Shown one piece after another: positions 50,936 to 62,142 of a DNA stretch of 64,000 bases. Position numbers and translations under genes: made by a program. Location of the stretch: contig CAWGHO010000001.1 of NCBI GenBank assembly GCA_963822445.1, positions 1,056,001 through 1,120,000 of the forward strand. The letters run 5' to 3'. This stretch comes from an uncultured Acidobacteriota bacterium (lineage in GTDB: Bacteria; Acidobacteriota; Thermoanaerobaculia; Gp7-AA8). The notes below the pieces were generated by a model, which ran no database searches, was not told the DNA's origin, and saw only the letters and a program-made list of their open reading frames with translations. Numbering within the stretch: position 1 is the stretch's first letter; every line of letters begins with the position of its first letter.

Positions 50936-51933
50936 ACCTTCCGGAAGACGTAAACGTCCTGCAGGGCGGCGATCGGAAAGAGCGTCGGCGGATCGGCGTC
51001 ATGGCCGCGCTCGAAGTAGCCGCGCAACTCGAACCCTTCGAACAGCGACTCCGCGAACGCGCGCGTGTGAAAGGTCGCGAACGCGTTCGAGCCGACAGCG
51101 CCGGTGGGCAGCTCGGAGTACTCGCCGGTCTGGCCGAAAATCCGCGCGTACACCGCGCCGTGCAGGGTGATCACGAGCACGCCACCGCGCTTGAGCACTC
51201 TGCGGATCTCCGCGATCCACGCGCGCTGATGCTCGATCGGGAGATGGGTGAAGACCGAGGCGAGTTGGACGAGGTCGAACTGGCCATCCTCGAGTGGTAA
51301 CGGCGGCAACAGATCGCAGACCGCCCACTCCCCCGGTAGGTTGGCTTTGCTCCACGCGATCAGTTCCGCGTTGATGTCGGCGCCGAACGTGCGGCGCTCC
51401 GGACTCGCGCAATGCCAGCCCATGAGCAGCCGTCCCGTCCCACAGCCGATGTCCAGGATCGACTGCATCTCCTTCGGCTCGACACCGCTCGCGCGCAGCA
51501 ACGACTCGAGCGTGTGCAGCCCCGCCACCATCGAGTCGAGATACGACCGCACGTCCCCCCCACCCTGCGTCGCCGCAACCAGTTCCGGCGTCGGCGTGGG
51601 CAAGGCGTCAATGCACGGCCAGATGTCCTTGCGCGAGCTTCCATCGAGCCGGAACACGGCCTCTTCGCCGCCGTCTGCATACACGACGCGCAGCTCGAAC
51701 GGCGGTTCAGCATGCGCGATCTCGACTTCGAACCGGCACTGACCCGCCCGGTGAAACGGCAGAAACGCCAGCTCGGGACAGGGTTTGTTGGTAGGCGTCT
51801 CGACGCCCTCGCCAATCCTGACCGCGACGATTTCGCGGCCGTCGATGGCCAGGGCAGCGCCGCGAAAGCGAAGCTTGCTCGACCTTTCGAAATGGTGATG
51901 GTGCGGCTCGTCGAGGAAGAACAGCGGTTTCAG
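50932..51933 (-). CDS. Class I SAM-dependent methyltransferase; probable CTG start
   Basis: ILDIGCGTGR, SVFTHL, RVLKRGG; frame is open back to a CTG overlapping the aroF stop. Confidence 0.8.
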   Translation of the reverse strand: MKPLFFLDEPHHHHFERSSKLRFRGAALAIDGREIVAVRIGEGVETPTNKPCPELAFLPFHRAGQCRFEVEIAHAEPPFELRVVYADGGEEAVFRLDGSSRKDIWPCIDALPTPTPELVAATQGGGDVRSYLDSMVAGLHTLESLLRASGVEPKEMQSILDIGCGTGRLLMGWHCASPERRTFGADINAELIAWSKANLPGEWAVCDLLPPLPLEDGQFDLVQLASVFTHLPIEHQRAWIAEIRRVLKRGGVLVITLHGAVYARIFGQTGEYSELPTGAVGSNAFATFHTRAFAESLFEGFELRGYFERGHDADPPTLFPIAALQDVYVFRKV

Positions 51934-52943
51934 ATACTCCTCCCCACCGCCGGCACAATGATCTTGAGCTCATCCATCAAACGCGCGAACTGATCGGGGT
52001 ACAGCGACTGTGGCCCATCGCACACCGCCTTTTCCGGATCGTGATGCACTTCGATCAACAATCCGTCCCCACCCGCGGCCACAGTCGCGCGAGCGAGGGG
52101 CATTACTTTGTCGCGGCGTCCGGTGGCATGCGATGGATCGCCGACGATTGGCAGATGCGACAGTTTGTCGATCACCGGGATGGCCGAGATGTCGAAGGTA
52201 TTGCGCGTGTACGTCTCGAACGTGCGGATGCCGCGCTCGCACAGGATGATGTCGTAATTGCCGCCGGCCATGATGTATTCGGCGGCGAGCAGCCATTCCT
52301 GAATGGTGGCGGACATGCCCCGCTTCAACAGAATGGGCTTTCGCACCTGCCCCAGCGCCGAGAGCAGGTTGTAGTTCTGCATGTTGCGCGCGCCGACCTG
52401 GAGGATGTCCACGTATTCGAGCATCTTCTCGATCTGCGAGATCTCCATGACCTCGGACACAGTGGCCATTGAGAATTCATCGCCCGCCGCGCGCAGCAGC
52501 TTCAATCCTTCGATGCCCATTCCTTGAAACGCATACGGCGACGTGCGGGGCTTGTACGCGCCGCCGCGTAACACGCGCGCGCCGGATCGCGCGACGCGAC
52601 GCGCGGTCTCGAAGAGCTGCGTCTCGCTCTCGATCGTGCAGGGACCGGCCATGACCACGACGCGATCGCCGCCGATCTCCACACCGCGCGCTTTGACGAT
52701 GGTCTTGTCGCGCTTGAACGTGCGGCTGGTGAGCTTGTACGGCTCGCTGACCCGCACCACTTCCTGCACGCCTTCGAAGAGCTCGAACTCGCGCGGATCG
52801 AGGGTGTCGACGCGGCCCACTACGCCGAGGATGGTTTGATCGGCGCCGGTGGAGCGGTGGACGTCGAAGCCGCGCGAGCTCAGCTCGGCGACGACGTGCT
52901 CGATCGACGGATCGGGGGCATGTTTCTGCATGACGATGATCAT
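51930..52943 (-). CDS. aroF: DAHP synthase type I-beta
   Basis: AGPC, KPRTSPY, IGARNMQN-like VGARNMQN, CERGIR, DPSH. Confidence 0.95.
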   Translation of the reverse strand: MIIVMQKHAPDPSIEHVVAELSSRGFDVHRSTGADQTILGVVGRVDTLDPREFELFEGVQEVVRVSEPYKLTSRTFKRDKTIVKARGVEIGGDRVVVMAGPCTIESETQLFETARRVARSGARVLRGGAYKPRTSPYAFQGMGIEGLKLLRAAGDEFSMATVSEVMEISQIEKMLEYVDILQVGARNMQNYNLLSALGQVRKPILLKRGMSATIQEWLLAAEYIMAGGNYDIILCERGIRTFETYTRNTFDISAIPVIDKLSHLPIVGDPSHATGRRDKVMPLARATVAAGGDGLLIEVHHDPEKAVCDGPQSLYPDQFARLMDELKIIVPAVGRSI

Positions 52944-53242
52944 TGAGACACTCCTGTAGATGCGGATTCGCGTTCGACACGACGCGATTCGTCGATGATT
53001 CGTTCGAAGAGACGGCGGATGGAAGGACCGTCGAGCGGGCCCGTACCCGCCGCTTCGACGTGCCGCAGCACTTCCTTTTCGCGCTCCGGTGCGTAAATCG
53101 GCAACGACAGCACGCCTTTGATCTCGCCGATCTCCACCGCGTACTTGGCGCGTTGATTGAGCAGTTTGACGAGGACGTCGTCGACGCGATCGATGGCCTC
53201 GCGCAGGCGGGTCAATTCGGCTTCGGCATCTGGCTTGTTCAT
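52940..53242 (-). CDS. Chorismate mutase (AroQ type)
   Basis: LREAIDRVDDVLVKLLNQR, IGEIK, PERE; GAGG RBS. Confidence 0.92.
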   Translation of the reverse strand: MNKPDAEAELTRLREAIDRVDDVLVKLLNQRAKYAVEIGEIKGVLSLPIYAPEREKEVLRHVEAAGTGPLDGPSIRRLFERIIDESRRVERESASTGVSQ

Positions 53243-53260
53243 AGGACCTCGGCGTGACAT

Positions 53261-53358
53261 TGGAGCGCCGGCGTCCCCGCCGGCTGTTGCGCCGGCGTCG
53301 CGCCGGCCCATGCAGGCGAGGACGCCTGCGGTCCAGCCGCCGGGACGGCGGCGCTCCA
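53261..53358. repeat. GGAG-bounded REP-like multi-hairpin element
   Basis: TGGAGCGCCGGCGTCCC ... GGGACGGCGGCGCTCCA; related to the GTAC family. Confidence 0.8.
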
Positions 53359-53382
53359 GGGTTCCGATTGACAATTCGGCAT

Positions 53383-53417
53383 AAACAAAAAACCTCTTCC
53401 CCCGGCGGGAGAAGAGG
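53383..53417 (-). terminator. Attenuator terminator hairpin
   Basis: CCTCTTCTCCC-GCC-GGGGAAGAGG followed by TTTTTTGTTT. Confidence 0.88.
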
Positions 53418-53480
53418 TTCGAGTTTGCCGTTGCCGTTTCGAGCGCCCCTTCTCGCGTCGGGGCGGACGTTTGCCCCACG

Positions 53481-53541: not shown

Positions 53542-54314
53542 TCAGGGTACGGGCGCCACCGCCGGACTGTCAAGAATCGACCGCACGACGTCCGCCGCCC
53601 GCTCCGCCCCTCCCTCGGCAACCGCGCGAACGATCGCGCTGCCGACGACGATGGCGTCGCAATGATCGCGAAGCAGCGCGTAATGCTCGGGTTTGGAGAT
53701 CCCGAAACCGACGGCGATGGGATGTTTCAACTTGCCGCGGACCTCGTCGAGCCGCTCGATCAACGCCGGATCGAGATCGTTGCGCGTGCCAGTGACGCCG
53801 GTGGTCGAGACGTAGTAAACGAATCCGTCGCTGGCCTTGTCGATGGCCTTGATGCGGGCGTCGGTCGACGTCGGCGCGAGCAGAAACACGGTGCCCAACC
53901 CATGGGCACGCATCGCCGTCCGCACCTCAGAGGAAGCCTCCGGCGGCAGGTCCGTCAACAGCAGTGAGTCGATTCCCGCCGCAGCCGCTTCCGATGCAAA
54001 CCGCTCCGGGCCGTACCGCAGGATCGGGTTGAGATAGGAAAAAGCGATCAGCGGAATGTCGCTTTCCTCCCGAATCTCGCGTGCGATCGCAAACACGTCC
54101 GGCGTGGTTGTGCCATTCTTCAGCGCGCGTTGCGCGGCGGCCTGAATCACCGGACCATCGGCGATCGGATCGGAAAACGGGACGCCGAGCTCGATGGCGT
54201 TCGCGCCGGCGCGCTCGAGCGCACGCACGATGCCGACGGTGTCGCCATCGCCGCAGGTCACGTACGCGATCAACCGGCAGCGATCGCGTTTTCTGAACAG
54301 ACGATCGACGCGAT

Positions 54315-54318
<4 letters not shown>
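53542..54318 (-). CDS. trpA: Tryptophan synthase alpha subunit
   Basis: [27 protein letters not shown]. Confidence 0.97.
53544..53573 (-). promoter_or_regulatory. Sigma70-type promoter TTGACA-N18-TACCCT inside the 3' end of trpA
   Basis: Perfect -35 box; TAnnnT -10 box 9 nt before the leader ATG. Confidence 0.65.
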
Positions 54319-55489
<1,171 letters not shown>

Positions 55490-55493
<4 letters not shown>

Positions 55494-56086
55494 GCGGCCC
55501 GCACCCTTTCCAACAGCGCGCGCACTTTGTCGGGATCCTTCCTGCCCGGCGCGGATTCGACACCGGAAGCGACGTCGATCGCGTACGGCCGCGCAACGCT
55601 GATGGCTACGCCGGCGTTCTCCGCGGTGATCCCGCCGGCGAGGAAGAATGGTTTCTCGCGGACGTACGCCACGAGCTCCCAGTTGAAACGTCTCCCAGTG
55701 CCGCCGGCCAGCCGGTCATCGAGCGTGTCGAACAGCAGATACGCCGCGCGCGTCTTCACCTCGGGCACCTCTTCGCCGACGCGAATGGTCTTGATCACCG
55801 AAACGCCGAGCTGCGTCATGTAGTCATCCGACTCCGATCCATGAAGCTGCACCAGATCGAGCCCGACCTCGGCGATCGCCCGCTGCACCATGTCCAGCGG
55901 CTGATCGCGAAAGACGCCGACGATCTTCGGCCGCGGATTTCCGAGGGCGGCCACGATCTCGCGGGCGCGGTCGTTCGTCACGCAGCGAGGTGACTCGGGC
56001 ACGAAAATGAGGCCCAGATAATCAGCGGACGAGCAGAGGATGGCGTCTTCGGGATTCGTGATTCCACACAATTTGATTTTCGTCAT
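55490..56086 (-). CDS. trpF: Phosphoribosylanthranilate isomerase
   Basis: KLCGIT, QLHGSE, GGTG, DVASGVE. Confidence 0.96.
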
Positions 56087-56862
56087 GACTTCACCAGTTC
56101 CCGCACTGCGGCGGCGCGATCATTCTGTCGCAGGAGCGACTCCCCGACGAGAAACGCATTGAATCGCGCCGCGCGCAGGCGATCAACATCGGCGCGCGTG
56201 CGGATGCCGCTTTCGGCGACCCGGATCGCTTCTGTAGGCATGAGCGTACTCAGACGTTCGGACGTTCCGAGATCGACGTGAAAGTCGCGGAGATCGCGAT
56301 TGTTGACGCCGATGACCCGCGCGCCGGCTTCGAGGGCGCTGGCGAGCTCCGCCTCGTCGTGCACTTCGACGAGCGCATCGCAGCCGTAGGCCTCGAGCAG
56401 GAGGATGAATTCGAGCATGCGCCGGCTGTCGAGCAGCGACGCGAGCAGAAGAATCGCGTCCGCACCCGCGGCGATGCCGCGCATGATCTGCGAAGGCTCG
56501 ACGACGAAATCCTTCATCACCGCCGGCAGTCCGCTCGCCGCTTTTGCGCGGGCAATCCACTCGATGTTTCCCTGGAAGAAGTCGGGCTCGGTGACGATGG
56601 AGATTGCCGCGGCGCCGCCGCGCGCGTAATCCGCGGCGATGGACTCGACGTCGGGATTCGGAGCGATCGGACCGGCCGACGGCGACGCGGCTTTGATCTC
56701 GGCGATGACGTTGATTCCGGCGCGAGCGAGCGCCTGCCGGAACGCGAAGGGGCTTCGCTGTGCGGCACGATCCATCGCCGCGCGGCGCGTGTCCTCGACT
56801 TCCATCGGCTCGTTGCGAAGGCGTTCGCGCGTGCGCGCGACGATGTCGTCGAGAACGGTCAC
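56083..56862 (-). CDS. trpC: Indole-3-glycerol phosphate synthase
   Basis: IAEIKAASPS, GVNNRDL, AESGI. Confidence 0.96.
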   Translation of the reverse strand: MTVLDDIVARTRERLRNEPMEVEDTRRAAMDRAAQRSPFAFRQALARAGINVIAEIKAASPSAGPIAPNPDVESIAADYARGGAAAISIVTEPDFFQGNIEWIARAKAASGLPAVMKDFVVEPSQIMRGIAAGADAILLLASLLDSRRMLEFILLLEAYGCDALVEVHDEAELASALEAGARVIGVNNRDLRDFHVDLGTSERLSTLMPTEAIRVAESGIRTRADVDRLRAARFNAFLVGESLLRQNDRAAAVRELVKS

Positions 56863-57884
56863 GAGGCGCCTCCCAGCTCATTGGTCGCATCGACGAGCTG
56901 CTGCAACTTCTCGCGCGCCGCACCGCTCGCGATCGCATCCCGCGCCATGGTTACTCCTTCGCGAATCGAAGTCGCGAGCCCGGCGACATACAAAGCCGCG
57001 CCGGCGTTGGCGATGACCACATCGCCTCGCGCACCGCTCTCGCCGGCGAGGACTTTGCGGGCGATCTCGGCATTCGCCTTCGCATCGCCGCCGCTCAACT
57101 CCTCGATCGCATGCGTCCGCAATCCGATCTCTTCGGGCGTGACGTCGTACGAGCGCACCTGACCGTCGCGCACTTCGCACACGTGGGTCGGCGCGGAGAC
57201 GGAGATCTCGTCGAGGCCGTCGCGGCTGTGCACGACCATCGCGTGATCTGCGCCGAGAGCCGCAAGCACGTGCGCAACGGTTTCGACGAGCCGGTCCGCG
57301 TACACGCCGAGGACCTGTCGCCGCGCGAACGCGGGATTGGTGAGCGGGCCGAGGACATTGAAGATCGTGCGCAGGCCGAGCTCGCGACGAACCGCGGCCA
57401 CCGCGCTCATTGCCGGATGAAGTTTCGGCGCGAAGAGAAAAGCGATGCCGACCCGGCGAAGGACTGCCGACATCCGTGAGGCATCGAGATCGATGTGCAC
57501 GCCCAGCGCGCTGAGCACGTCCGCGCTGCCGCAGGCCGAGGAGACGGCACGATTGCCGTGTTTGGCGACGTTCGCGCCCGCAGCCGCGGCGACGAGTGCG
57601 GCAACGGTGGAAATGTTGAACGTGCCGCGACCATCGCCGCCTGTGCCGCAGGTGTCGACGAGGTTGTCCCGATCGACATCCAGAGGCGTGACCCGCGCGC
57701 GCATGGCCAGGGCCGCGCCTGTAATCTCATCCGCGGTCTCCCCTTTCATTCGCAGCGCCACGAGCAGCGCGGACTTTTGAACATCGCTCGCTTTTCCATC
57801 CATGACGTACGCGAAGACTTCATGCATCTCGTCGCGGCCGAGATGGTGGCCGTCGACGGCGCGTTTGATGGCCTGCTCGATCAT
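56859..57884 (-). CDS. trpD: Anthranilate phosphoribosyltransferase
   Basis: DTCGTGGDG, KHGNRAVSS, GPLTNP, DGLDE. Confidence 0.97.
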   Translation of the reverse strand: MIEQAIKRAVDGHHLGRDEMHEVFAYVMDGKASDVQKSALLVALRMKGETADEITGAALAMRARVTPLDVDRDNLVDTCGTGGDGRGTFNISTVAALVAAAAGANVAKHGNRAVSSACGSADVLSALGVHIDLDASRMSAVLRRVGIAFLFAPKLHPAMSAVAAVRRELGLRTIFNVLGPLTNPAFARRQVLGVYADRLVETVAHVLAALGADHAMVVHSRDGLDEISVSAPTHVCEVRDGQVRSYDVTPEEIGLRTHAIEELSGGDAKANAEIARKVLAGESGARGDVVIANAGAALYVAGLATSIREGVTMARDAIASGAAREKLQQLVDATNELGGAS

Positions 57885-58468
57885 CGAAGGCCTCCCAGAA
57901 AATTGAGAATCAATTGATCGCCGCCGGACGTGCCGTAGGACTCGGGATGGAACTGGATTCCGAACACAGGCCGGCGCCTGTGCGAAATCGCCATGATCGT
58001 CCCATCCTCGGTCTCCGCGTCGACAGACAGATCGTCCGAAAGCGTCTCGCGCGCGACAACGAGGGAGTGATACCGCGCGGTGTGCATCGGCGCCGGACAT
58101 CCGGTGAACAACCGCTCGCCGCCGTGGCGCACTTCGCTGACCTTCCCATGCACCGGCACCTCGCCGCGCATGACCCGAGCCCCGAACGCCTCGGCAATGG
58201 CCTGATGTCCGAGGCAGACGCCGAGGAGAGGGATCGCGTCGTTGATGCGAATCAGATCGATGCAGCGGCCGGCGCGTGACGGCGTGCCGGGACCGGGCGA
58301 GATGACCAGCGCGCGAGGCTTTTCGGCGATGAGCGCGGCGGGATCAAACGCGTCGTTGCGCACGACGCGGACACGCTCGCCGGAAAGGCGCTCGATCTGC
58401 TGAACCAGGTTGTAGGTGAAGGAGTCGTAATTGTCTACGACTGTGATTGGCGAGTTACTCGAGCCAAA
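57881..58468 (-). CDS. trpG: Anthranilate synthase component II (glutamine amidotransferase); no in-frame canonical start
   Basis: ITVVDNYDSFTYNL, SPGPG, GVCLGHQ, QFHPES; frame closed by an upstream TGA with no ATG/GTG/TTG before DNYDSF. Confidence 0.92.
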   Translation of the reverse strand, partial: FGSSNSPITVVDNYDSFTYNLVQQIERLSGERVRVVRNDAFDPAALIAEKPRALVISPGPGTPSRAGRCIDLIRINDAIPLLGVCLGHQAIAEAFGARVMRGEVPVHGKVSEVRHGGERLFTGCPAPMHTARYHSLVVARETLSDDLSVDAETEDGTIMAISHRRRPVFGIQFHPESYGTSGGDQLILNFLGGLR

Positions 58469-58523
58469 GCGACGAGCCGGCGACGTGACTCATCGGCTCG
58501 TTTGTCTCCTGTGGGTTCGACAT
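58455..58523 (-). CDS. Putative trp leader ORF MSNPQETNEPMSHVAGSSLWLE (second ATG at 58493)
   Basis: TAGACT -10 box 9 nt before ATG 58523; AGGAG before ATG 58493; single TGG preceded by CTT; overlaps the trpG frame. Confidence 0.5.
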   Translation of the reverse strand: MSNPQETNEPMSHVAGSSLWLE

Positions 58524-58548
58524 GGGACGGGAAGTCTAGCACGGGGCC

Positions 58549-59883
58549 TCATGCCTTTTTCATAGGCACCAGTTCCCCCGGCTCGTCGTCCTGCATCCGC
58601 AACCGGAGCTTCGACGATTCCAGCGGCGTTGCTTCGAGCTGGTCGAGGTTGCCGAGGTCCTTGCCGCTGCCGGCCATGCGCTGGAGCTCTTCCCCTTTCG
58701 GCCAGAGGCGGGTGTCGATCGAACGGATGGTCTCGTTGTACTTCTCGACCGTCTTGCCCAGCCGGCCGCCGACCTCGGAGATGAGGTCCATGATCCTCAC
58801 GAAGCGGTTGAACAGCTCCACCGCCGCGTCGTGCATCTTCTTGGCGTTCTCCTCGGTCTTCTCCGCCTTCCAGCTCGCGGCAACCGCGCGCAGCAGCGGG
58901 AGGAGAACCGTCGGTGACGCGAGGAAGATCTTCCGCTCTGCCGCGTACTCGTGCAGCGTGAGATCGGTGGACAGCGCGGCGGCCAGGAAATGCTCGCCGG
59001 GGATGAACATCACCGCGAAATCGAGCGTCTCGCCGACGCTCGCCTGATATTCGCGTTTCGCCAGTGCGTCGACATGGCGGCGGATGTTCTTCGCGTGCTG
59101 TTCGAGAAACGCCCGTTTGCGCGCTTCGTCGGGCTCGTTGCAGGCCGCGATGTACTCGGTGAGCGGCGCTTTCGCGTCGACAGCGATCACGCGCTTGTTC
59201 GGGAGATTGATCACGACGTCGGGGCGGATGCGGCGGCCTTCATCGGTCATGAAAGTCTGCTGCGCATCGAAGTCGTGGCAGTACTCGCTCATGCCCGCGA
59301 GCTCGATGCAGCGCTTGAGCGACATCTCGCCCCAGGAGCCCTGGACCGTCGGAGACTGCAGGGCATTGGCGAGGCGCGCCGCTTCGCGTTGCGCGGATTC
59401 CTGCGTGACGAGCAGAGAGCGAAGCTGCTCCTGCAGGCCTCCATAACTCTCCTTGCGCGCATGCTCGCTCTTCGTCACCTCGGCGCGGTACGTCTCGAGC
59501 ATCTCCCTGACCGGCACGAGCACGCCGTCGAGCGTGCCGCCGACCTGGGTCTTGTTCGACTGCACCAGCGACTCGCTGACGTCCTTGAACGCTTTCTGCG
59601 CGAGCACGGCAAAGCTCTCTTCGAGCTGCTTGTGATTGGCGAGGAGCTTCGCCGCTTCCTCGGCGCGCGTTTCGGCTACGGCGCGTTCCTGCTGGGCCTC
59701 TTCAACCCGGCGCTGCATCTCGGCCCGGGCGGCGTCGCTTTTCTCTCGCTCGGCGTGCTCGAGATCGCGCTCGGCAAGGGCCCGCTGCGCTTCGGCGCTC
59801 TTCCTCGCGCTCCCGACCACCCATCCCACGATCGCACCAATCATCAGGGCGATCACGCTCGAAAACAGCACCGTGATTGTCAT
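58549..59883 (-). CDS. rmuC: DNA recombination protein RmuC
   Basis: N-terminal TM, coiled coil, GSWGEMSL, RPD, VDAK, FIPGE, SPT. Confidence 0.93.
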   Translation of the reverse strand: MTITVLFSSVIALMIGAIVGWVVGSARKSAEAQRALAERDLEHAEREKSDAARAEMQRRVEEAQQERAVAETRAEEAAKLLANHKQLEESFAVLAQKAFKDVSESLVQSNKTQVGGTLDGVLVPVREMLETYRAEVTKSEHARKESYGGLQEQLRSLLVTQESAQREAARLANALQSPTVQGSWGEMSLKRCIELAGMSEYCHDFDAQQTFMTDEGRRIRPDVVINLPNKRVIAVDAKAPLTEYIAACNEPDEARKRAFLEQHAKNIRRHVDALAKREYQASVGETLDFAVMFIPGEHFLAAALSTDLTLHEYAAERKIFLASPTVLLPLLRAVAASWKAEKTEENAKKMHDAAVELFNRFVRIMDLISEVGGRLGKTVEKYNETIRSIDTRLWPKGEELQRMAGSGKDLGNLDQLEATPLESSKLRLRMQDDEPGELVPMKKA

Positions 59884-61007
59884 GAAGAAGATGATAACCC
59901 GCGCATGATCGCGACCACGCGCTCGACCTCCTCCGCGTCGTTGTAGAAGTGGGGCGAGAACCGCAGCATCCCCTCGCGGGGCGCGCAAACTACCCCTTCT
60001 TCCTCGAGGCGGCGGTGGTACCACAGAAGCGACTTCTCTACATCTGGTGGAGTCACGCCGACGATCGGCGAGGCGATGGGCTTCGGCGACCCGACCCGCC
60101 AGCCGATGGATTCGGCCCCCTCGGCCAACCGACGGGCAACAGCCAGAGCGTTTTCGGCAATGACGTCGATGCCGATCTCGAGGAGGAGGTCGACGGCCGC
60201 CCGCAAACCGTAGATCCCGTTGGTGTTCAACGATCCGGCCTCGAACCGGCGCGAGCTCGGAAGCAGGTCGGTCGGCGCGCCAATGAACTTCTGCTGCCGG
60301 TCGATGTTCATCCAGCCGTTTTCGAGGACCTCGAGCTCCTCGCGGCGTTCCTCCGCCACGTAGAAAATCGCGCACCCTTCCGGGCCACACATCCACTTGT
60401 GGCCGTCGGCCGCGAGGAAGTCGATGTTCGCCGCGCGGACGTCGATCGGCAGCACGCCCACGCCCTGAATGGCGTCGACACAGAAGCGGACGTTGCGCCG
60501 TGCGCAAAGCTCGCCGATCGCGATCACGTCAGCGACGAAGCCGTTGTGGAACGCGACGGAGGACACCGTGACGAGACGGGTGCGGTCGTCAATCAGCGGC
60601 TCGATGTCTTCCACGGTCGGTGTTGCGGCGACGCGGCACTCGACACCGCGGCGCGCGAGCACTTTCCAGGGCGTCCAGTTCGAGGGGAACTCGATGGCGG
60701 TGGTGATGACGTTGTCGCCGTCGCGCCAGCGCAGACCTTCCGCGACGAAGGACAGGCCTTCGGAGGTGTTCTTGAGGATGGCGATCTCGCCCGGCTTCGC
60801 GCCGATGAGACGCGCCAGGGACTCGCGAAGGTGGTCGTACTCCGCGTACCAGTCGCGCCAGTGCAGCGCGCCGTAATCGCGCTGATCGCGCGCGTGACGC
60901 TCCATCGCTTCGTAAGCGCGTGTGGAGAGCGGGCCGACGGCGGCGTGATTGAAGTAGATGAGATTTCCCGTGACCGGGAAGAGATCTTTAAAAGCGGCGG
61001 AGGTCAT
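59880..61007 (-). CDS. Class V PLP-dependent aminotransferase (cysteine desulfurase-like family)
   Basis: YFNHAAVGP, VDAIQ, GHKWMCGP, RFSPHFYN. Confidence 0.9.
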   Translation of the reverse strand: MTSAAFKDLFPVTGNLIYFNHAAVGPLSTRAYEAMERHARDQRDYGALHWRDWYAEYDHLRESLARLIGAKPGEIAILKNTSEGLSFVAEGLRWRDGDNVITTAIEFPSNWTPWKVLARRGVECRVAATPTVEDIEPLIDDRTRLVTVSSVAFHNGFVADVIAIGELCARRNVRFCVDAIQGVGVLPIDVRAANIDFLAADGHKWMCGPEGCAIFYVAEERREELEVLENGWMNIDRQQKFIGAPTDLLPSSRRFEAGSLNTNGIYGLRAAVDLLLEIGIDVIAENALAVARRLAEGAESIGWRVGSPKPIASPIVGVTPPDVEKSLLWYHRRLEEEGVVCAPREGMLRFSPHFYNDAEEVERVVAIMRGLSSSS

Positions 61008-62142
61008 CGAGGTAGGCATCGTAGCTGCGCCGCATCTCGGTCATGGTGTCGCCGCCGAATTTCTCGCGCATCGCACCGGCCAGGACGATGGCCAGCATGG
61101 CTTCGCAGACGACGCCGCACGCCGGAACGGCGGTGACGTCGCTGCGCTCCCACTGCGAGCGATGTGCTTCCCGCGTCTCGATGTCGACGCTCGGAAGTCC
61201 GCGACGCAGAGTGGAAATCGGCTTCATGAACGCGCGAACGACGATGTCCTGCCCGTTGGTGACGCCGCCTTCGAGGCCGCCCGCACGATTGGTCTCGCGG
61301 TAGTACCGCCGCGTGTCATCGAAGTAGATCGCGTCATGAACTTCCGATCCGAGTCTGCGCGCGGCCGCGACCCCGTCGCCGACCGCAACGGCCTTGACCG
61401 CGTGAATGGAGAGGATGGCCTGGCCGATGCGGCCATCGAGCTTTTCGTTCCACTGAACATAGGAGCCGAGTCCGACGGGTACGCCGCGCGCGGCGATGAC
61501 GATCGTGCCGCCGAGGGTCTCGCCGGCTTCTTTGGCGCGGTCGACGGCGGCGATCATGTCCGCCTCGCTGTTGACCGCGCGCAACGGTGAGTCATCATCG
61601 ACGTCGAGGTCGTCCCAGGTCGGTGAGTACTCCGGATCGCCCGCGTCACCGACGGACACGACGCCGGAGCGGATCTCGATTCCGAACGCGCGCAGCAACT
61701 CCTTCGCGATCGCCCCCGCCGCCACCCGCCCCGCGGTCTCGCGGGCCGACGCGCGCTCGAGGATGTCGCGCAGATCGCGGCGGCCGTACTTCATCCCCCC
61801 CGCGAGATCGACATGCCCCGGCCGCGGTGCGTGGACGCGACGCTTGTGGGTCTCGGCTTCGTCGAGGTCCCACGGGTCCATCGCTTTCTGCCAGTTTTCA
61901 TGATCTTTATTGCGGATGACGATGGCGATGGGAGCGCCGATGGTCTCCCCGCCTCGGACCCCGCCGACGATTTCGGCTTCGTCGGATTCGATCTTCATGC
62001 GGCCGCCGCGGCCGTAGCCGTGCTGGCGCCTTCGCAGGTCGTCGTTGATCCTGGTTCTGTCGAGTCTCAGGCCCGCGGGGATGTTCTGCACGAGGATCGT
62101 GAGTTGGGGGCCGTGGGATTCGCCGGCTGTTGTGAAGTGCAT
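60988..62142 (-). CDS. aroC: Chorismate synthase
   Basis: TAGESHG, PRPGH, ERASARET, KPISTL, ERSD. Confidence 0.97.
   Translation of the reverse strand: MHFTTAGESHGPQLTILVQNIPAGLRLDRTRINDDLRRRQHGYGRGGRMKIESDEAEIVGGVRGGETIGAPIAIVIRNKDHENWQKAMDPWDLDEAETHKRRVHAPRPGHVDLAGGMKYGRRDLRDILERASARETAGRVAAGAIAKELLRAFGIEIRSGVVSVGDAGDPEYSPTWDDLDVDDDSPLRAVNSEADMIAAVDRAKEAGETLGGTIVIAARGVPVGLGSYVQWNEKLDGRIGQAILSIHAVKAVAVGDGVAAARRLGSEVHDAIYFDDTRRYYRETNRAGGLEGGVTNGQDIVVRAFMKPISTLRRGLPSVDIETREAHRSQWERSDVTAVPACGVVCEAMLAIVLAGAMREKFGGDTMTEMRRSYDAYLDDLRRF

What the first reader, a model, noticed from the sequence alone, without database searches (positions are those of the whole stretch)
58441..58540. Candidate tryptophan-sensing +1 ribosomal frameshift (CUU-UGG) gating trpG, the first gene of the trp operon
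Seen: the trpG frame has no ATG/GTG/TTG between an upstream TGA and the conserved ITVVDNYDSF start. A short ORF in another frame (ATG 58523 or 58493) reads ...TCG CTT TGG CTC GAG TAA, and its only Trp codon directly follows CTT (58469-58464). A +1 slip from CUU to UUU reads GGC TCG AGT AAC TCG CCA ATC ACA GTC GTA GAC, exactly into trpG. A TAGACT -10 box precedes the ORF, and an ACGAGCCG/CGGCTCGT stem encloses the second ATG, with an alternative GGCTCG partner just past the Trp codon. No terminator hairpin is visible, so this is not a classical attenuator. Known: prfB shifts +1 at CUU-UGA when A-site decoding is slow, and hungry codons promote shifts. Inference: low Trp-tRNA would switch on TrpG and, through overlapping stop/start coupling, trpDCFBA. 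Caveats: deleting one T gives a plain in-frame gene, this window has many indel errors, and the prfB-type SD stimulator is absent. Reinitiation at the AUC 7 nt after the TAA is a third option.
Basis: partly seen in the sequence, partly recalled or inferred. Interest (0 to 1): 0.85.

Follow-up and report, generated by a model that had tools for sequence, protein, structure and literature searches.

The report
Tryptophan-codon frameshift switch for trpG
The first gene of this soil bacterium's tryptophan operon has no start codon and can only be made if ribosomes that started on a tiny upstream reading frame slip forward one base at a Leu-Trp codon pair, an arrangement kept across a whole bacterial family that looks like a new way of sensing tryptophan shortage.

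Summary
On the minus strand, trpG (58447-57881) has no ATG/GTG/TTG and no Shine-Dalgarno (SD) sequence. A 22-codon ORF (ORF1, 58523-58455) starts 9 nt after a conserved extended -10 box. It contains CTT TGG C (58469-63), and trpG lies in its +1 frame.

This is not an assembly error.
- Two independently assembled contigs cover the site without a gap.
- 33 of 109 family genomes (12 genera) have a start-less trpG.
- A frame-blind metagenome scan found 66 start-less sequences, and all 66 share the arrangement.
- CTT-to-trpG distances are 10 to 31 nt, and all are 1 mod 3.
- trpG is under purifying selection (dN/dS 0.14-0.18).

The other 57 leader-bearing genomes keep a start codon for trpG. In them the +1 frame of ORF1 stays open into 1-3 further Trp codons, which hold 109 of 118 TGG triplets.

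The genome's own prfB uses CTT TGA C. A hairpin ends 2 nt before CTT. Short-ORF1 relatives carry an SD-like motif at that position instead.

Best reading: a programmed +1 ribosomal frameshift at CUU-UGG, raised when Trp-tRNA is scarce. The frameshift is strongly supported by comparison. The dependence on Trp is inferred. I found no published description.

The parts
58533..58542 (-). Extended -10 promoter-like box (gTGc TAGACT). There is no conserved -35. The ORF1 ATG follows 9 nt later, so the mRNA is expected to be leaderless or nearly so.
   Evidence: Sequence. Family consensus tGTGcTAnnnT followed by 8-10 nt and ATGA in 85 aligned leaders. ATG lies 8-10 nt after the box in 80 of 86. The simple sigma-70 scanner, which requires a -35, found nothing. 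The transcription start site is not measured.
58455..58523 (-). ORF1, the leader ORF of 22 codons (ATG 58523 to TAA 58457-58455), with a single Trp codon near its end. A second in-frame ATG lies at 58493, 11 nt after an AGGAGA.
   Evidence: The first ATG after the -10 box is in frame with CTT TGG in 85 of 86 relatives, with 6 to 26 codons before CTT.
58472..58501 (-). Hairpin inside ORF1. The 5' arm is 58501-58494 and the 3' arm is 58479-58472, ending 2 nt before CTT, so it abuts the E-site codon when CTT is in the P site. It is a candidate +1 stimulator.
   Evidence: Present in the minimum-energy fold, but the fold as a whole is not significant (z -1.35). 90% of cells paired in 49 relatives, with one covarying pair (CG 25, UA 10, UG 4). 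The 3' arm ends at -3 in 112 of 113 long-ORF1 leaders. Upstream E-site-adjacent hairpins stimulate +1 shifting at CUUUGA on 70S ribosomes in vitro: PMC6321510, passages read. The function here is inferred.
58463..58469 (-). Proposed shift site CTT TGG C. Peptidyl-tRNA-Leu(GAG) on CUU re-pairs with UUU while UGG waits for Trp-tRNA. The next codon read is GGC.
   Evidence: C at +6 in 90 of 90 leaders and T at +7 in 85 of 90: (CTTTGG itself was the search key). tRNA set (Leu-GAG, one Trp-CCA, Gly-GCC). prfB of the same genome has TAT CTT TGA C.
58455..58457 (-). ORF1 stop codon (TAA), four codons after CTT. This is the fate of ribosomes that do not shift.
   Evidence: The stop is not required for the arrangement: relatives with short spacers have no ORF1 stop before trpG.
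58448..58465 (-). Six-codon linker read only in the +1 frame (GGC to CCA), joining ORF1 to the conserved TrpG N-terminus.
   Evidence: In relatives the linker changes mostly at +1-frame third positions (351 versus 265 and 219 pairwise differences), and one genus keeps the linker peptide through synonymous codon swaps.
57881..58447 (-). trpG (anthranilate synthase glutamine amidotransferase subunit), 188 codons plus TGA, with no start codon of its own and no SD.
   Evidence: Pfam GATase class I, E 1.9e-51, covering residues 3-184. dN/dS 0.14-0.18 between start-less relatives.
53542..57884 (-). trpD, trpC, trpF, trpB and trpA. Each start overlaps the previous stop by 4 nt (ATGA or GTGA), so their translation is probably coupled to that of trpG.
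   Evidence: ORF coordinates. The ATGA junction between trpG and trpD can be read. Pfam identities. Coupling is inferred from the overlaps.

Best explanation
Proposed mechanism in the window:
1. Transcription starts a few bases before ATG 58523, from an extended -10 promoter.
2. Ribosomes translate ORF1.
3. When CUU (58469-67) is in the P site and the single UGG codon is in the A site, one of two things happens.
   - A well-supplied cell decodes UGG quickly, and the ribosome terminates at TAA four codons after CUU. No TrpG is made.
   - If charged tRNA-Trp is scarce the A site stays empty. Peptidyl-tRNA-Leu(GAG) slips from CUU to UUU, Gly-tRNA reads GGC, and the ribosome continues in the +1 frame through a six-codon linker into TrpG. 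The product carries a 25-residue N-terminal extension.
4. trpD, trpC, trpF, trpB and trpA follow by coupled translation across their 4-nt overlaps.

The hairpin that ends 2 nt before CUU probably plays the role that the internal Shine-Dalgarno sequence plays in prfB, pushing the ribosome forward.

What is shown by comparison: trpG can only be reached from ORF1 by a +1 change of frame at or next to CTT TGG. What is inferred: the slip is ribosomal, it rises when Trp-tRNA is low, the hairpin stimulates it, and the downstream genes are coupled.
For: 1. There is no alternative start. No ATG/GTG/TTG and no SD precede trpG. The +1 frame is closed by the TGA inside the ATGA of the ORF1 start, which is ATGA in 82 of 85 leaders.

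2. It is not an error. A 329-nt contig of run X1 covers 58255-58583 with 0 differences and 0 gaps; it may come from the source sample. A contig from another study (X3) covers 58431-58543 with 7 substitutions and 0 gaps.

3. Frame linkage in genomes. 33 of 109 located family loci, in 12 genera, lack a start. Their CTT-to-TrpG distances are 10 (x6), 13 (x4), 19 (x2), 22 (x15), 25 (x5) and 28 (x1), all 1 mod 3. The first TrpG codon is ATC 24, CTC 5, ATT 2, GTC 1, CTG 1.

4. Frame-blind test. The metagenome pattern CTTTGGC + 9-39 nt + the DNYDSFT codons gave 108 distinct sequences. Of these, 66 have no start within 12 codons. All 66 are in the +1 frame with the family-type leader, at distances of 10, 13, 16, 19, 22, 25, 28 and 31 nt. 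The 42 with their own start, from other organisms, fall in all three frames (24/10/8).

5. Repeated origin. On a TrpG+TrpD tree of the genus the long form is basal. Fused forms sit in at least two separately supported places (SH-aLRT 99 each), and the tree needs a minimum of 4 changes.

6. The gene is functional. dN/dS is 0.14-0.18 at dS 0.55-0.90 between fused forms, the same as for long forms.

7. The 57 long-form relatives keep an SD and a start for trpG, yet the ORF1 +1 frame runs open into Trp codons.
   - TGG triplets after the ORF1 stop: 109 in the +1 frame, 5 in frame 0, 4 in frame +2.
   - 56 of 57 have at least one Trp codon in the +1 extension.
   - The +1 ORFs fall in 19 different length classes.
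   - The +1 frame is open in 52 of 56; the +2 frame is open in 1 of 56.

8. The machinery is present. The genome has tRNA-Leu(GAG), one tRNA-Trp and tRNA-Gly(GCC). Its own prfB has GGAG-C-TAT-CTT-TGA-C.

9. CTT-TGG is avoided in ordinary genes. It occurs 59 times against 122.9 expected in 2552 long ORFs (0.48). CTT before T-starting codons overall is 1.44, and CTT-TGC is 1.56.

10. Stimulators are mutually exclusive. Among 152 distinct leaders, 112 of 113 with a long ORF1 have the hairpin arm ending at -3 and 0 of 113 have an SD-like 4-mer there. Among the 39 with a short ORF1, 26 have GGAG or GGTG-type 4-mers there and 0 have the hairpin arm. These 4-mers match the 16S 3' end.

11. Upstream hairpins stimulate +1 shifting at CUUUGA on 70S ribosomes in vitro (PMC6321510, passages).
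Against: - There is no expression, proteomic or ribosome-profiling data. The one RNA run laid had no contig on the site.
- Trp dependence rests on analogy with hungry-codon frameshifting, not on any measurement.
- The window lacks an SD-like stimulator. The hairpin has only one covarying pair, and the window's fold is not significant (z -1.35).
- Relatives are kin, so raw counts overstate independence. The firm argument rests on the eight spacer classes and the 19 length classes, not on the totals.
- CTTTGG was my search key, so its invariance is partly by construction. I saw no leader with a different hexamer among the 19 remaining family loci, but only by eye.
- The control group in the metagenome scan is itself skewed towards the +1 frame (24 of 42).
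- Strong codon-pair biases exist in this genome (CTT before A-starting codons is 0.11), so the CTT-TGG depletion is only suggestive.
- The tree was a quick search on about 530 columns, and several branches are weak.
Confidence: 0.77

Rival explanations
1. The +1 frameshift is real but constitutive. A fixed fraction of ORF1 ribosomes shifts whatever the tryptophan supply, so the site only sets a low expression level or is a tolerated evolutionary accident. Trp control lies elsewhere.
For: All the comparative evidence for a frameshift is silent on regulation. Nothing here measures a response to Trp. The Atkins 2016 review notes that no natural hungry-codon frameshift giving a functional product was known (PMC5009743, passage).
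Against: The A-site codon is the single codon for the pathway's own end product in every leader found. In the long forms the +1 extension leads into 1-3 further Trp codons (109 of 118 TGG triplets), which is hard to explain without Trp sensing. trpE carries no leader of its own, so no other Trp-specific control was seen. CTT-TGG is avoided in ordinary genes.
Confidence: 0.12
2. TrpG is started independently at a non-canonical codon (AUC at 58447), or by 70S reinitiation after ORF1 terminates at TAA 7 nt upstream.
For: ATC or ATT is the first conserved codon in 26 of 33 fused forms. ORF1 stops 7 nt before it in the window. Table 11 allows ATC starts.
Against: There is no SD before it. The first codon is GTC in L055 and CTC or CTG in six others. 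Ile/Val/Leu at this place is simply the first strand of TrpG and also follows the ATG in long forms. In 17 of the 33 fused genomes ORF1 does not stop before trpG but 7-12 codons after CTT, inside trpG. Neither model requires a frame, yet 33 of 33 and 66 of 66 are in the +1 frame. The linker shows +1-frame coding constraint.
Confidence: 0.05
3. The change of frame is made at the RNA level, by transcriptional slippage or editing that drops one U of CUUUGG, so that a fraction of mRNAs encodes an in-frame ORF1-TrpG fusion.
For: It would give the same protein and the same comparative signature of frame linkage.
Against: From established knowledge, not tested here: a run of three T is far shorter than known slippage tracts. 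It would not explain the invariant G G C after TTT, the Trp codon, the E-site-adjacent hairpin or SD, or the likeness to the genome's own prfB site.
Confidence: 0.02
4. Assembly or sequencing artefact (one extra T), or a decaying trpG pseudogene.
For: Deleting one T would give a plain in-frame gene. The genome is a 3-contig assembly at 94.7% completeness.
Against: Two other contigs agree, with no gap at the site. The same out-of-frame layout is found in 32 other species and 66 metagenome sequences. dN/dS is 0.14-0.18 over dS up to 0.9. The Pfam match is full length.
Confidence: 0.01

Closest known systems
prfB (release factor 2) programmed +1 frameshift, CUU UGA C
   Same: CUU in the P site slips to UUU while a slowly decoded A-site codon beginning with U waits. 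C follows the A-site codon. A duplex sits just 5' of the E-site codon. The logic is negative feedback: the factor that decodes the A-site codon shuts off the shift. The genome's own prfB has this site.
   Different: The A-site codon is a sense codon (UGG), so the sensed molecule would be Trp-tRNA rather than a release factor. The product is a biosynthetic enzyme and, through coupling, a whole operon. In the window the stimulator is a hairpin, not an SD. The shifted ORF is a leaderless mini-ORF.
Ribosome-mediated attenuation of trp operons (trpL leader peptide, E. coli type)
   Same: A short upstream ORF with Trp codon(s) reads the charging of tRNA-Trp and sets expression of the trp genes.
   Different: There is no terminator or antiterminator and no Rfam leader match. 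There is one Trp codon, not tandem ones. The structural gene has no initiation site of its own. The read-out is a change of frame, not RNA refolding.
Hungry-codon +1 frameshifting (Gallant and colleagues in E. coli; yeast Ty1 CUU AGG C)
   Same: CUU followed by a slowly decoded sense codon followed by C. The shift frequency is set by the supply of one aminoacyl-tRNA (PMC5009743, passages).
   Different: The E. coli cases are laboratory constructs or errors. Ty1 relies on a constitutively rare tRNA, not on amino-acid supply. The review states that no natural case yielding a functional starvation-specific product was known.
pheL CCC UGA frameshifting in E. coli
   Same: A +1 shift inside the leader ORF of an aromatic amino-acid operon.
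   Different: Its authors judged it incidental and without effect on pheA (PMC3082878, passages; PMC5009743). It occurs at the stop codon, not at the regulatory codons.
Leaderless cysteine-rich short ORFs that attenuate downstream operons in mycobacteria (bioRxiv 10.1101/834739; search listing and abstract start only)
   Same: A leaderless mini-ORF carrying codons of the pathway's amino acid controls the operon behind it.
   Different: No change of frame is involved, and the structural genes have their own starts.
Antizyme +1 frameshift (polyamine sensing)
   Same: A metabolite pathway regulates itself through the efficiency of a +1 frameshift (recalled; also the abstract listing of PMC3113565).
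   Different: It is eukaryotic. High product level stimulates the shift. It occurs at a stop codon. The shifted product is an inhibitor, not a biosynthetic enzyme.

Membership tests
prfB-type programmed +1 ribosomal frameshift site | P-site CUU that can re-pair as UUU (next base U) | tested here: met
   CTT T at 58469-58466. tRNA-Leu(GAG) is present.
prfB-type programmed +1 ribosomal frameshift site | The A-site codon is the in-frame stop UGA, decoded by the gene's own product | tested here: not met
   The A-site codon is UGG (Trp), a sense codon. This is therefore not a member of the prfB family, although it appears to work like one.
prfB-type programmed +1 ribosomal frameshift site | SD-like sequence about 3 nt 5' of CUU | tested here: not met
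   The window has GGCTCGTCG before CTT and no SD-like 4-mer. Counts are 0 of 113 long-ORF1 leaders and 26 of 39 short-ORF1 leaders. A hairpin arm occupies that position in the window.
prfB-type programmed +1 ribosomal frameshift site | The downstream ORF is essential, lacks its own start, and is conserved in the +1 frame across species | tested here: met
   33 of 33 genomes and 66 of 66 metagenome sequences are in the +1 frame. dN/dS is 0.14-0.18.
prfB-type programmed +1 ribosomal frameshift site | The shifted protein product is demonstrated | not testable with these tools
   No proteomic or reporter data are available.
Classical trp transcription attenuator (trpL) | Leader ORF with Trp codon(s) upstream of trp biosynthetic genes | tested here: met
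   ORF1 has one TGG. Long-form relatives have 1-3 more, but in the +1 frame.
Classical trp transcription attenuator (trpL) | Intrinsic terminator and alternative antiterminator between the leader ORF and the first gene | tested here: not met
   No terminator-like site in 57800-58800. Only 7 nt lie between the ORF1 stop and the TrpG N-terminus. No Rfam match at E up to 1.
Classical trp transcription attenuator (trpL) | The first structural gene has its own ribosome-binding site and start codon | tested here: not met
Natural hungry-codon (aminoacyl-tRNA-limited) frameshift sensor | Shift frequency rises when the cognate aminoacyl-tRNA falls | not testable with these tools
   This is inferred from site anatomy, from the Trp codons in the +1 extensions of relatives and from genome-wide avoidance of CTT-TGG.
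Leaderless regulatory mini-ORF | The transcript starts at or within a few nt of the ORF's AUG | tested here: inconclusive
   A conserved extended -10 box lies 8-10 nt before the ATG in 80 of 86 leaders, with a C-rich spacer and no SD. No transcription start data are available.

The most novel reading that the evidence does not exclude
An entire family of soil bacteria (at least 90 of 109 species examined) senses tryptophan through a programmed +1 frameshift at CUU-UGG in a leaderless mini-ORF. This would be the first natural case in which starvation for an amino acid switches on its own biosynthetic genes by recoding.

In the ancestral long form the shift works as the first step of a two-step check. 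Only shifted ribosomes reach a second set of Trp codons, and stalling there unmasks the trpG ribosome-binding site.

In at least two lineages, and probably many more, a deletion fused trpG directly to the +1 frame. The enzyme itself then became the trans-frame product.
Probability: 0.6. Interest if true: 0.92.

Novelty: new variant of a known kind. Interest (0 to 1): 0.9.

Why it matters
Programmed +1 frameshifting in bacteria is known as a regulator essentially from one gene, prfB. Amino-acid control of biosynthetic operons is known through attenuation, T-boxes, repressors and TRAP.

A leading review states that hungry-codon frameshifting yielding a functional starvation-specific product has no known natural example (PMC5009743, passage). 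[quoted passage not shown] If confirmed, this site fills that gap.

It would show that charged-tRNA level can be read directly as a choice of reading frame. It offers a minimal portable sensor of about 30-70 nt for tryptophan supply.

It also explains why gene callers will truncate or mis-annotate trpG in many genomes of this family. The natural series of variants provides a ready-made mutational analysis:
- hairpin versus SD stimulator;
- spacers of 10 to 31 nt;
- with and without an ORF1 stop;
- fused versus two-step.

Tried and rejected
Steps that led nowhere:
- The Rfam scan of 57000-60000 at E up to 1 gave no match.
- The simple promoter and terminator scanner found nothing. The promoter call therefore rests on family conservation only.
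It returned only relatives at about 50% identity from other phyla. It gave neither close relatives nor a taxon name, so I cannot name the family.
- RNAalifold on the 23 long forms of the genus failed, because MAFFT could not align the variable spacer. Only a 4-pair local stem was returned.
- I tested whether the trpG SD region pairs with the Trp-codon region in long forms. The best partner lies next to the Trp codons in 52 of 53. Energies are barely better than shuffles (mean z -1.07; 7 of 53 below -2), and the segment is short, so this is weak. The two-step model for the long form is a hypothesis.
- In genus g39 the predicted SD-sequestering helix is invariant and shows no covariation.
- Sequencing runs: only X1 held much of the stretch (0.41 of words). 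The RNA run X20 and the other runs held small shares and gave no cover at the site. That says nothing about expression.
- trpE of this genome has no leader; it overlaps an upstream aroE-like gene.
- A quadruplet-reading tRNA-Leu was considered and rejected. Five ordinary Leu tRNAs were found, and about 2000 in-frame CTT-T pairs exist in long ORFs.
- A TnaC-like arrest peptide was considered and rejected. It has the wrong regulatory direction, and it would not change frame.

Literature:
- They found no paper describing a frameshift in a trp leader or in trpG.
- This claim is limited to the held library.
- The supplements of the GeneTack survey (PMC3711429) list clusters of conserved frame transitions. 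I could not see them, and they might contain this gene. Its main text has no hit for anthranilate, tryptophan or amidotransferase.
Full report
**1. What is in the window**

The following features lie on the minus strand.
- An RmuC-family gene ends at 58549.
- It is followed by gTGc-TAGACT (58542-58533), nine C-rich bases, and ATG 58523.
- That ATG opens a 22-codon ORF (ORF1), which ends TCG CTT TGG CTC GAG TAA at 58455.
- The glutamine amidotransferase gene trpG is recognisable from ATC 58447 to TGA 57881. Its Pfam GATase match has E 1.9e-51 over residues 3-184.
- Upstream of ATC the trpG frame is open for only 14 codons, back to a TGA, and contains no ATG, GTG or TTG.
- No purine-rich ribosome-binding site precedes it.
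- trpG lies in the +1 frame of ORF1. Reading CTTT as a single step joins the two without a stop (protein P0002).
- trpD, trpC, trpF, trpB and trpA follow. Each start overlaps the preceding stop by four bases.
- A chorismate mutase gene and a DAHP synthase gene lie behind them.
- No Rfam family matches, and no terminator-like hairpin is present.

**2. Not an error, not a dead gene**

- A 329-nt contig of run X1 covers 58255-58583 without a difference or a gap. It may come from the source sample.
- A contig from a different study (X3) covers 58431-58543 with seven substitutions and no gap.
- The layout is also shared by other species (section 3).
- trpG of four start-less species shows dN/dS of 0.14-0.18 at dS 0.55-0.90. 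These values do not differ from those of species whose trpG has a start.
- The genome holds no second close TrpG. Its other class-I amidotransferase matches are at about 30% identity.

**3. Relatives: the frame is always +1**

The genome's family holds 124 species genomes, and 113 of them have a TrpG match. I located the trpG 5' region in 109 of them. Two unpublished genomes were skipped and two truncated contigs were lost.

The 109 fall into three classes:
- 33 'fused' forms like the window, with no start codon between CTT TGG and TrpG;
- 57 'long' forms;
- 19 without the leader. Most of these have trpE directly upstream.

The fused forms occur in 12 genera. The distance from CTT to the first conserved TrpG codon takes these values:

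| Distance (nt) | Genomes |
|---|---|
| 10 | 6 |
| 13 | 4 |
| 19 | 2 |
| 22 | 15 |
| 25 | 5 |
| 28 | 1 |

All six values are 1 mod 3.

The first TrpG codon is ATC 24, CTC 5, ATT 2, GTC 1 and CTG 1. In 17 of the 33 fused genomes ORF1 has no stop before trpG and ends 7-12 codons after CTT, inside trpG.

Because I had found these loci through TrpG and then looked for CTTTGG, I ran a frame-blind test. I scanned metagenome contigs for CTTTGGC, then any 9-39 bases, then the codons of DNYDSFT. The results were as follows.
- There were 120 hits, 108 of them distinct.
- 66 have no start codon within 12 codons of the Asp codon. All 66 are in the +1 frame. All 66 carry the family-type leader (a -10 box and an in-frame ATG). 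Their distances are 10, 13, 16, 19, 22, 25, 28 and 31 nt.
- The 42 with a start of their own come from other organisms. None has the leader, and they fall in all three frames (24, 10, 8).

Related sequences are not independent. However, eight spacer lengths require at least seven length changes, each of which kept the frame.

**4. The long forms point the same way**

In the 57 long forms trpG has a good SD and an ATG/GTG/TTG directly before the ITVV residues. ORF1 is nevertheless conserved. It stops 3-6 codons after CTT TGG, and its +1 frame continues for 15-43 codons (73 in one case).

- TGG triplets between the ORF1 stop and trpG number 109 in the +1 frame, 5 in frame 0 and 4 in frame +2.
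- 56 of 57 leaders have at least one Trp codon in the +1 extension, and 36 have two or three.
- The extensions come in 19 length classes.
- From CTT to the last TGG, the +1 frame is open in 52 of 56 and the +2 frame in 1 of 56.
- Several leaders (for example L006, L007, L016) have no ATG/GTG/TTG anywhere in that frame.

The Trp-rich codons that one expects in a trp leader are therefore reachable only from ORF1 by a +1 shift. The window's fused form is not an oddity. It is a shortened version of a family-wide device.

On a TrpG+TrpD tree of the genus (32 genus rows and two outgroups, quick search) the long form is basal. Fused forms appear in at least two separately supported places:
- the clade L012/L035/L013/L031 (SH-aLRT 99);
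- L037, with a 10-nt distance, inside a clade of long forms (SH-aLRT 99).

The window's own lineage sits in a poorly resolved grade. The tree needs a minimum of four changes. Deletions that fused trpG to the +1 frame were therefore viable more than once. That is expected if ribosomes already entered that frame.

**5. Where the shift occurs, and what helps it**

The region in which frame 0 and frame +1 are both open is bounded upstream by the TGA inside the ATGA of the ORF1 start. The start is ATGA in 82 of 85 leaders. Downstream it is bounded, in many genomes, by the ORF1 stop 3-4 codons after CTT.

Within that region only CTT TGG C is constant. C at +6 is present in 90 of 90 leaders and T at +7 in 85 of 90. 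The hexamer itself was my search key.

The site has the anatomy of the RF2 site. The same genome's prfB reads GGAG-C-TAT-CTT-TGA-C, with the rest of RF2 in the +1 frame. The tRNA set contains Leu(GAG), a single Trp(CCA) and Gly(GCC) for the first +1 codon.

In 2552 long ORFs of this genome CTT-TGG occurs 59 times against 122.9 expected. CTT before other T-starting codons is over-represented (1.44 overall; CTT-TGC is 1.56). This fits selection against an error-prone pair. Other strong pair biases exist, so it is only suggestive.

Two kinds of element sit just 5' of the E-site codon, and they exclude each other. Among 152 distinct leaders:

| Leader type | n | Hairpin 3' arm ending at -3 | SD-like 4-mer at -11..-3 |
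|---|---|---|---|
| Long ORF1 (at least 16 codons) | 113 | 112 | 0 |
| Short ORF1 (at most 11 codons) | 39 | 0 | 26 |

The window belongs to the long-ORF1 type. Its hairpin arms are 58501-58494 and 58479-58472. The SD-like 4-mers are of the GGAG or GGTG type and are complementary to the 16S 3' end.

The hairpin is 90% paired across 49 relatives, with one covarying pair. The window's fold as a whole is not significant.

Work from another laboratory showed that a stable hairpin adjoining the E site stimulates +1 shifting at CUUUGA on 70S ribosomes in vitro, and that it mimics the internal SD duplex (PMC6321510, passages). I therefore read the hairpin as the window's stimulator. This is an inference.

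**6. The start of ORF1**

Aligned on the -10 box, 85 leaders give tGTGcTAnnnT with no conserved -35. Eight to ten mostly C bases follow, and then ATGA. The first ATG after the box is in frame with CTT TGG in 85 of 86 leaders, with 6 to 26 codons in between.

This is the signature of an extended -10 promoter driving a leaderless or nearly leaderless mini-ORF. No transcript data exist to confirm it.

The window also has an in-frame ATG at 58493, 11 nt after AGGAGA. Either start leads to the same site.

**7. Mechanism proposed**

- With ample Trp-tRNA, UGG is read and ORF1 ends at TAA. trpG and the coupled trpDCFBA genes stay untranslated.
- With scarce Trp-tRNA, the ribosome waits with CUU in the P site and slips to UUU. 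It reads GGC and makes TrpG with a 25-residue extension. The downstream genes follow.
- In the long forms, shifted ribosomes reach further Trp codons that lie next to sequences able to pair with the trpG SD. Stalling there would free the SD. This gives a two-step check, but its support is weak.

What comparison shows is the need for a +1 change of frame at this site and the functional state of trpG. The ribosomal nature of the shift, its dependence on Trp, the role of the hairpin and the coupling of the downstream genes are inferred.

**8. Rivals**

- Constitutive frameshifting without Trp control is the main rival (about 0.12).
- Initiation or reinitiation at AUC fails. The first codon can be GTC, CTC or CTG. 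Many genomes have no ORF1 stop before trpG. No SD is present. The model also does not explain the universal frame.
- RNA-level slippage on three T is implausible.
- Assembly error and pseudogene are excluded (section 2).

**9. Comparison with known systems, and novelty**

The site works like prfB but is not a member of that family. Its A-site codon is a sense codon, and the window has no SD.

It is also not a classical attenuator. There is no terminator, trpG has no start of its own, and there is no Rfam match.

The closest concept is hungry-codon frameshifting. A comprehensive review says that no natural example giving a functional product was known (PMC5009743, passage). The pheL shift was judged incidental (PMC3082878).

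Seven literature searches found no description of this system. The supplements of the GeneTack survey could not be seen.

I rate it a new variant of a known kind: a programmed +1 frameshift with a new input and a new role.

**10. Limits**

- The tools gave no taxon name. Relatives bear only handles.
- One unpublished genome (G002, locus L009) is among the 57 long forms. Nothing depends on it.
- No experiment or expression data bear on the claim.

Noticed in passing
Relatives L002-L024, L032-L039, L041-L094 (long forms); no counterpart in the window: In 57 relatives the ORF1 +1 frame runs into 1-3 Trp codons, then a stop about 40-48 nt before an SD-equipped trpG. Pyrimidine-rich stretches beside the Trp codons can pair with that SD. 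In genus g39 the partner contains the +1 stop codon. This looks like a two-step sensor: frameshift first, then stalling.
   Followed up: partly
L014 (G020) and L099 (G073): Two family members have lost ORF1 altogether. The conserved -10-like box sits 8-12 nt before a TTG or ATG that directly starts trpG. There trpG itself appears to be leaderless and without the Trp-codon leader.
   Followed up: no
G000 contig C3, about 1082640-1082890 (locus L196): prfB of the same genome carries the classical programmed +1 site (GGAG, then C TAT CTT TGA C) after 22 codons.
   Followed up: yes
G000 contig C1, about 1580800-1581100 (locus L199): trpE is not in the trp operon. Its ATG overlaps (ATGA) the stop of an upstream gene that looks like shikimate dehydrogenase, and it has no leader ORF.
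   Followed up: partly
Whole genome G000 (2552 long ORFs): Codon-pair usage is very uneven. CTT is almost never followed by an A-starting codon (0.11 of expectation) and is enriched before C- and T-starting codons. CTT-TGG is the only depleted T-starting partner (0.48).
   Followed up: partly
Upstream of the -10 box in L012, L013, L031, L035, L037, L047, L052, L061, L095, L097 and several g39 loci: Many relatives carry arrays of short tandem repeats (6-8 nt units) arranged as long inverted repeats just upstream of the trp leader promoter. The repeat units differ between genera. The window has none, because rmuC ends 7 nt before the -10 region.
   Followed up: no
window 51930-53479 (-): A chorismate mutase (CM_2) gene and a DAHP synthase gene, overlapping by 4 nt, follow trpA after a 62-nt gap. 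Aromatic-pathway entry and branch-point enzymes therefore sit behind the trp operon on the same strand.
   Followed up: no
window 58549-61019 (-): The RmuC ORF as listed (652 aa) overlaps the next ORF (59880-61019) by about 630 nt. The Pfam RmuC domain covers only residues 326-612, so the true RmuC start is probably further downstream.
   Followed up: no
Run X2, loose end at window 58441: A soil-metagenome contig that diverges from the window upstream of trpG shows another fused leader (CTTTGG, 16 nt, then ATC GTC). It is an unplanned extra instance of the arrangement.
   Followed up: no
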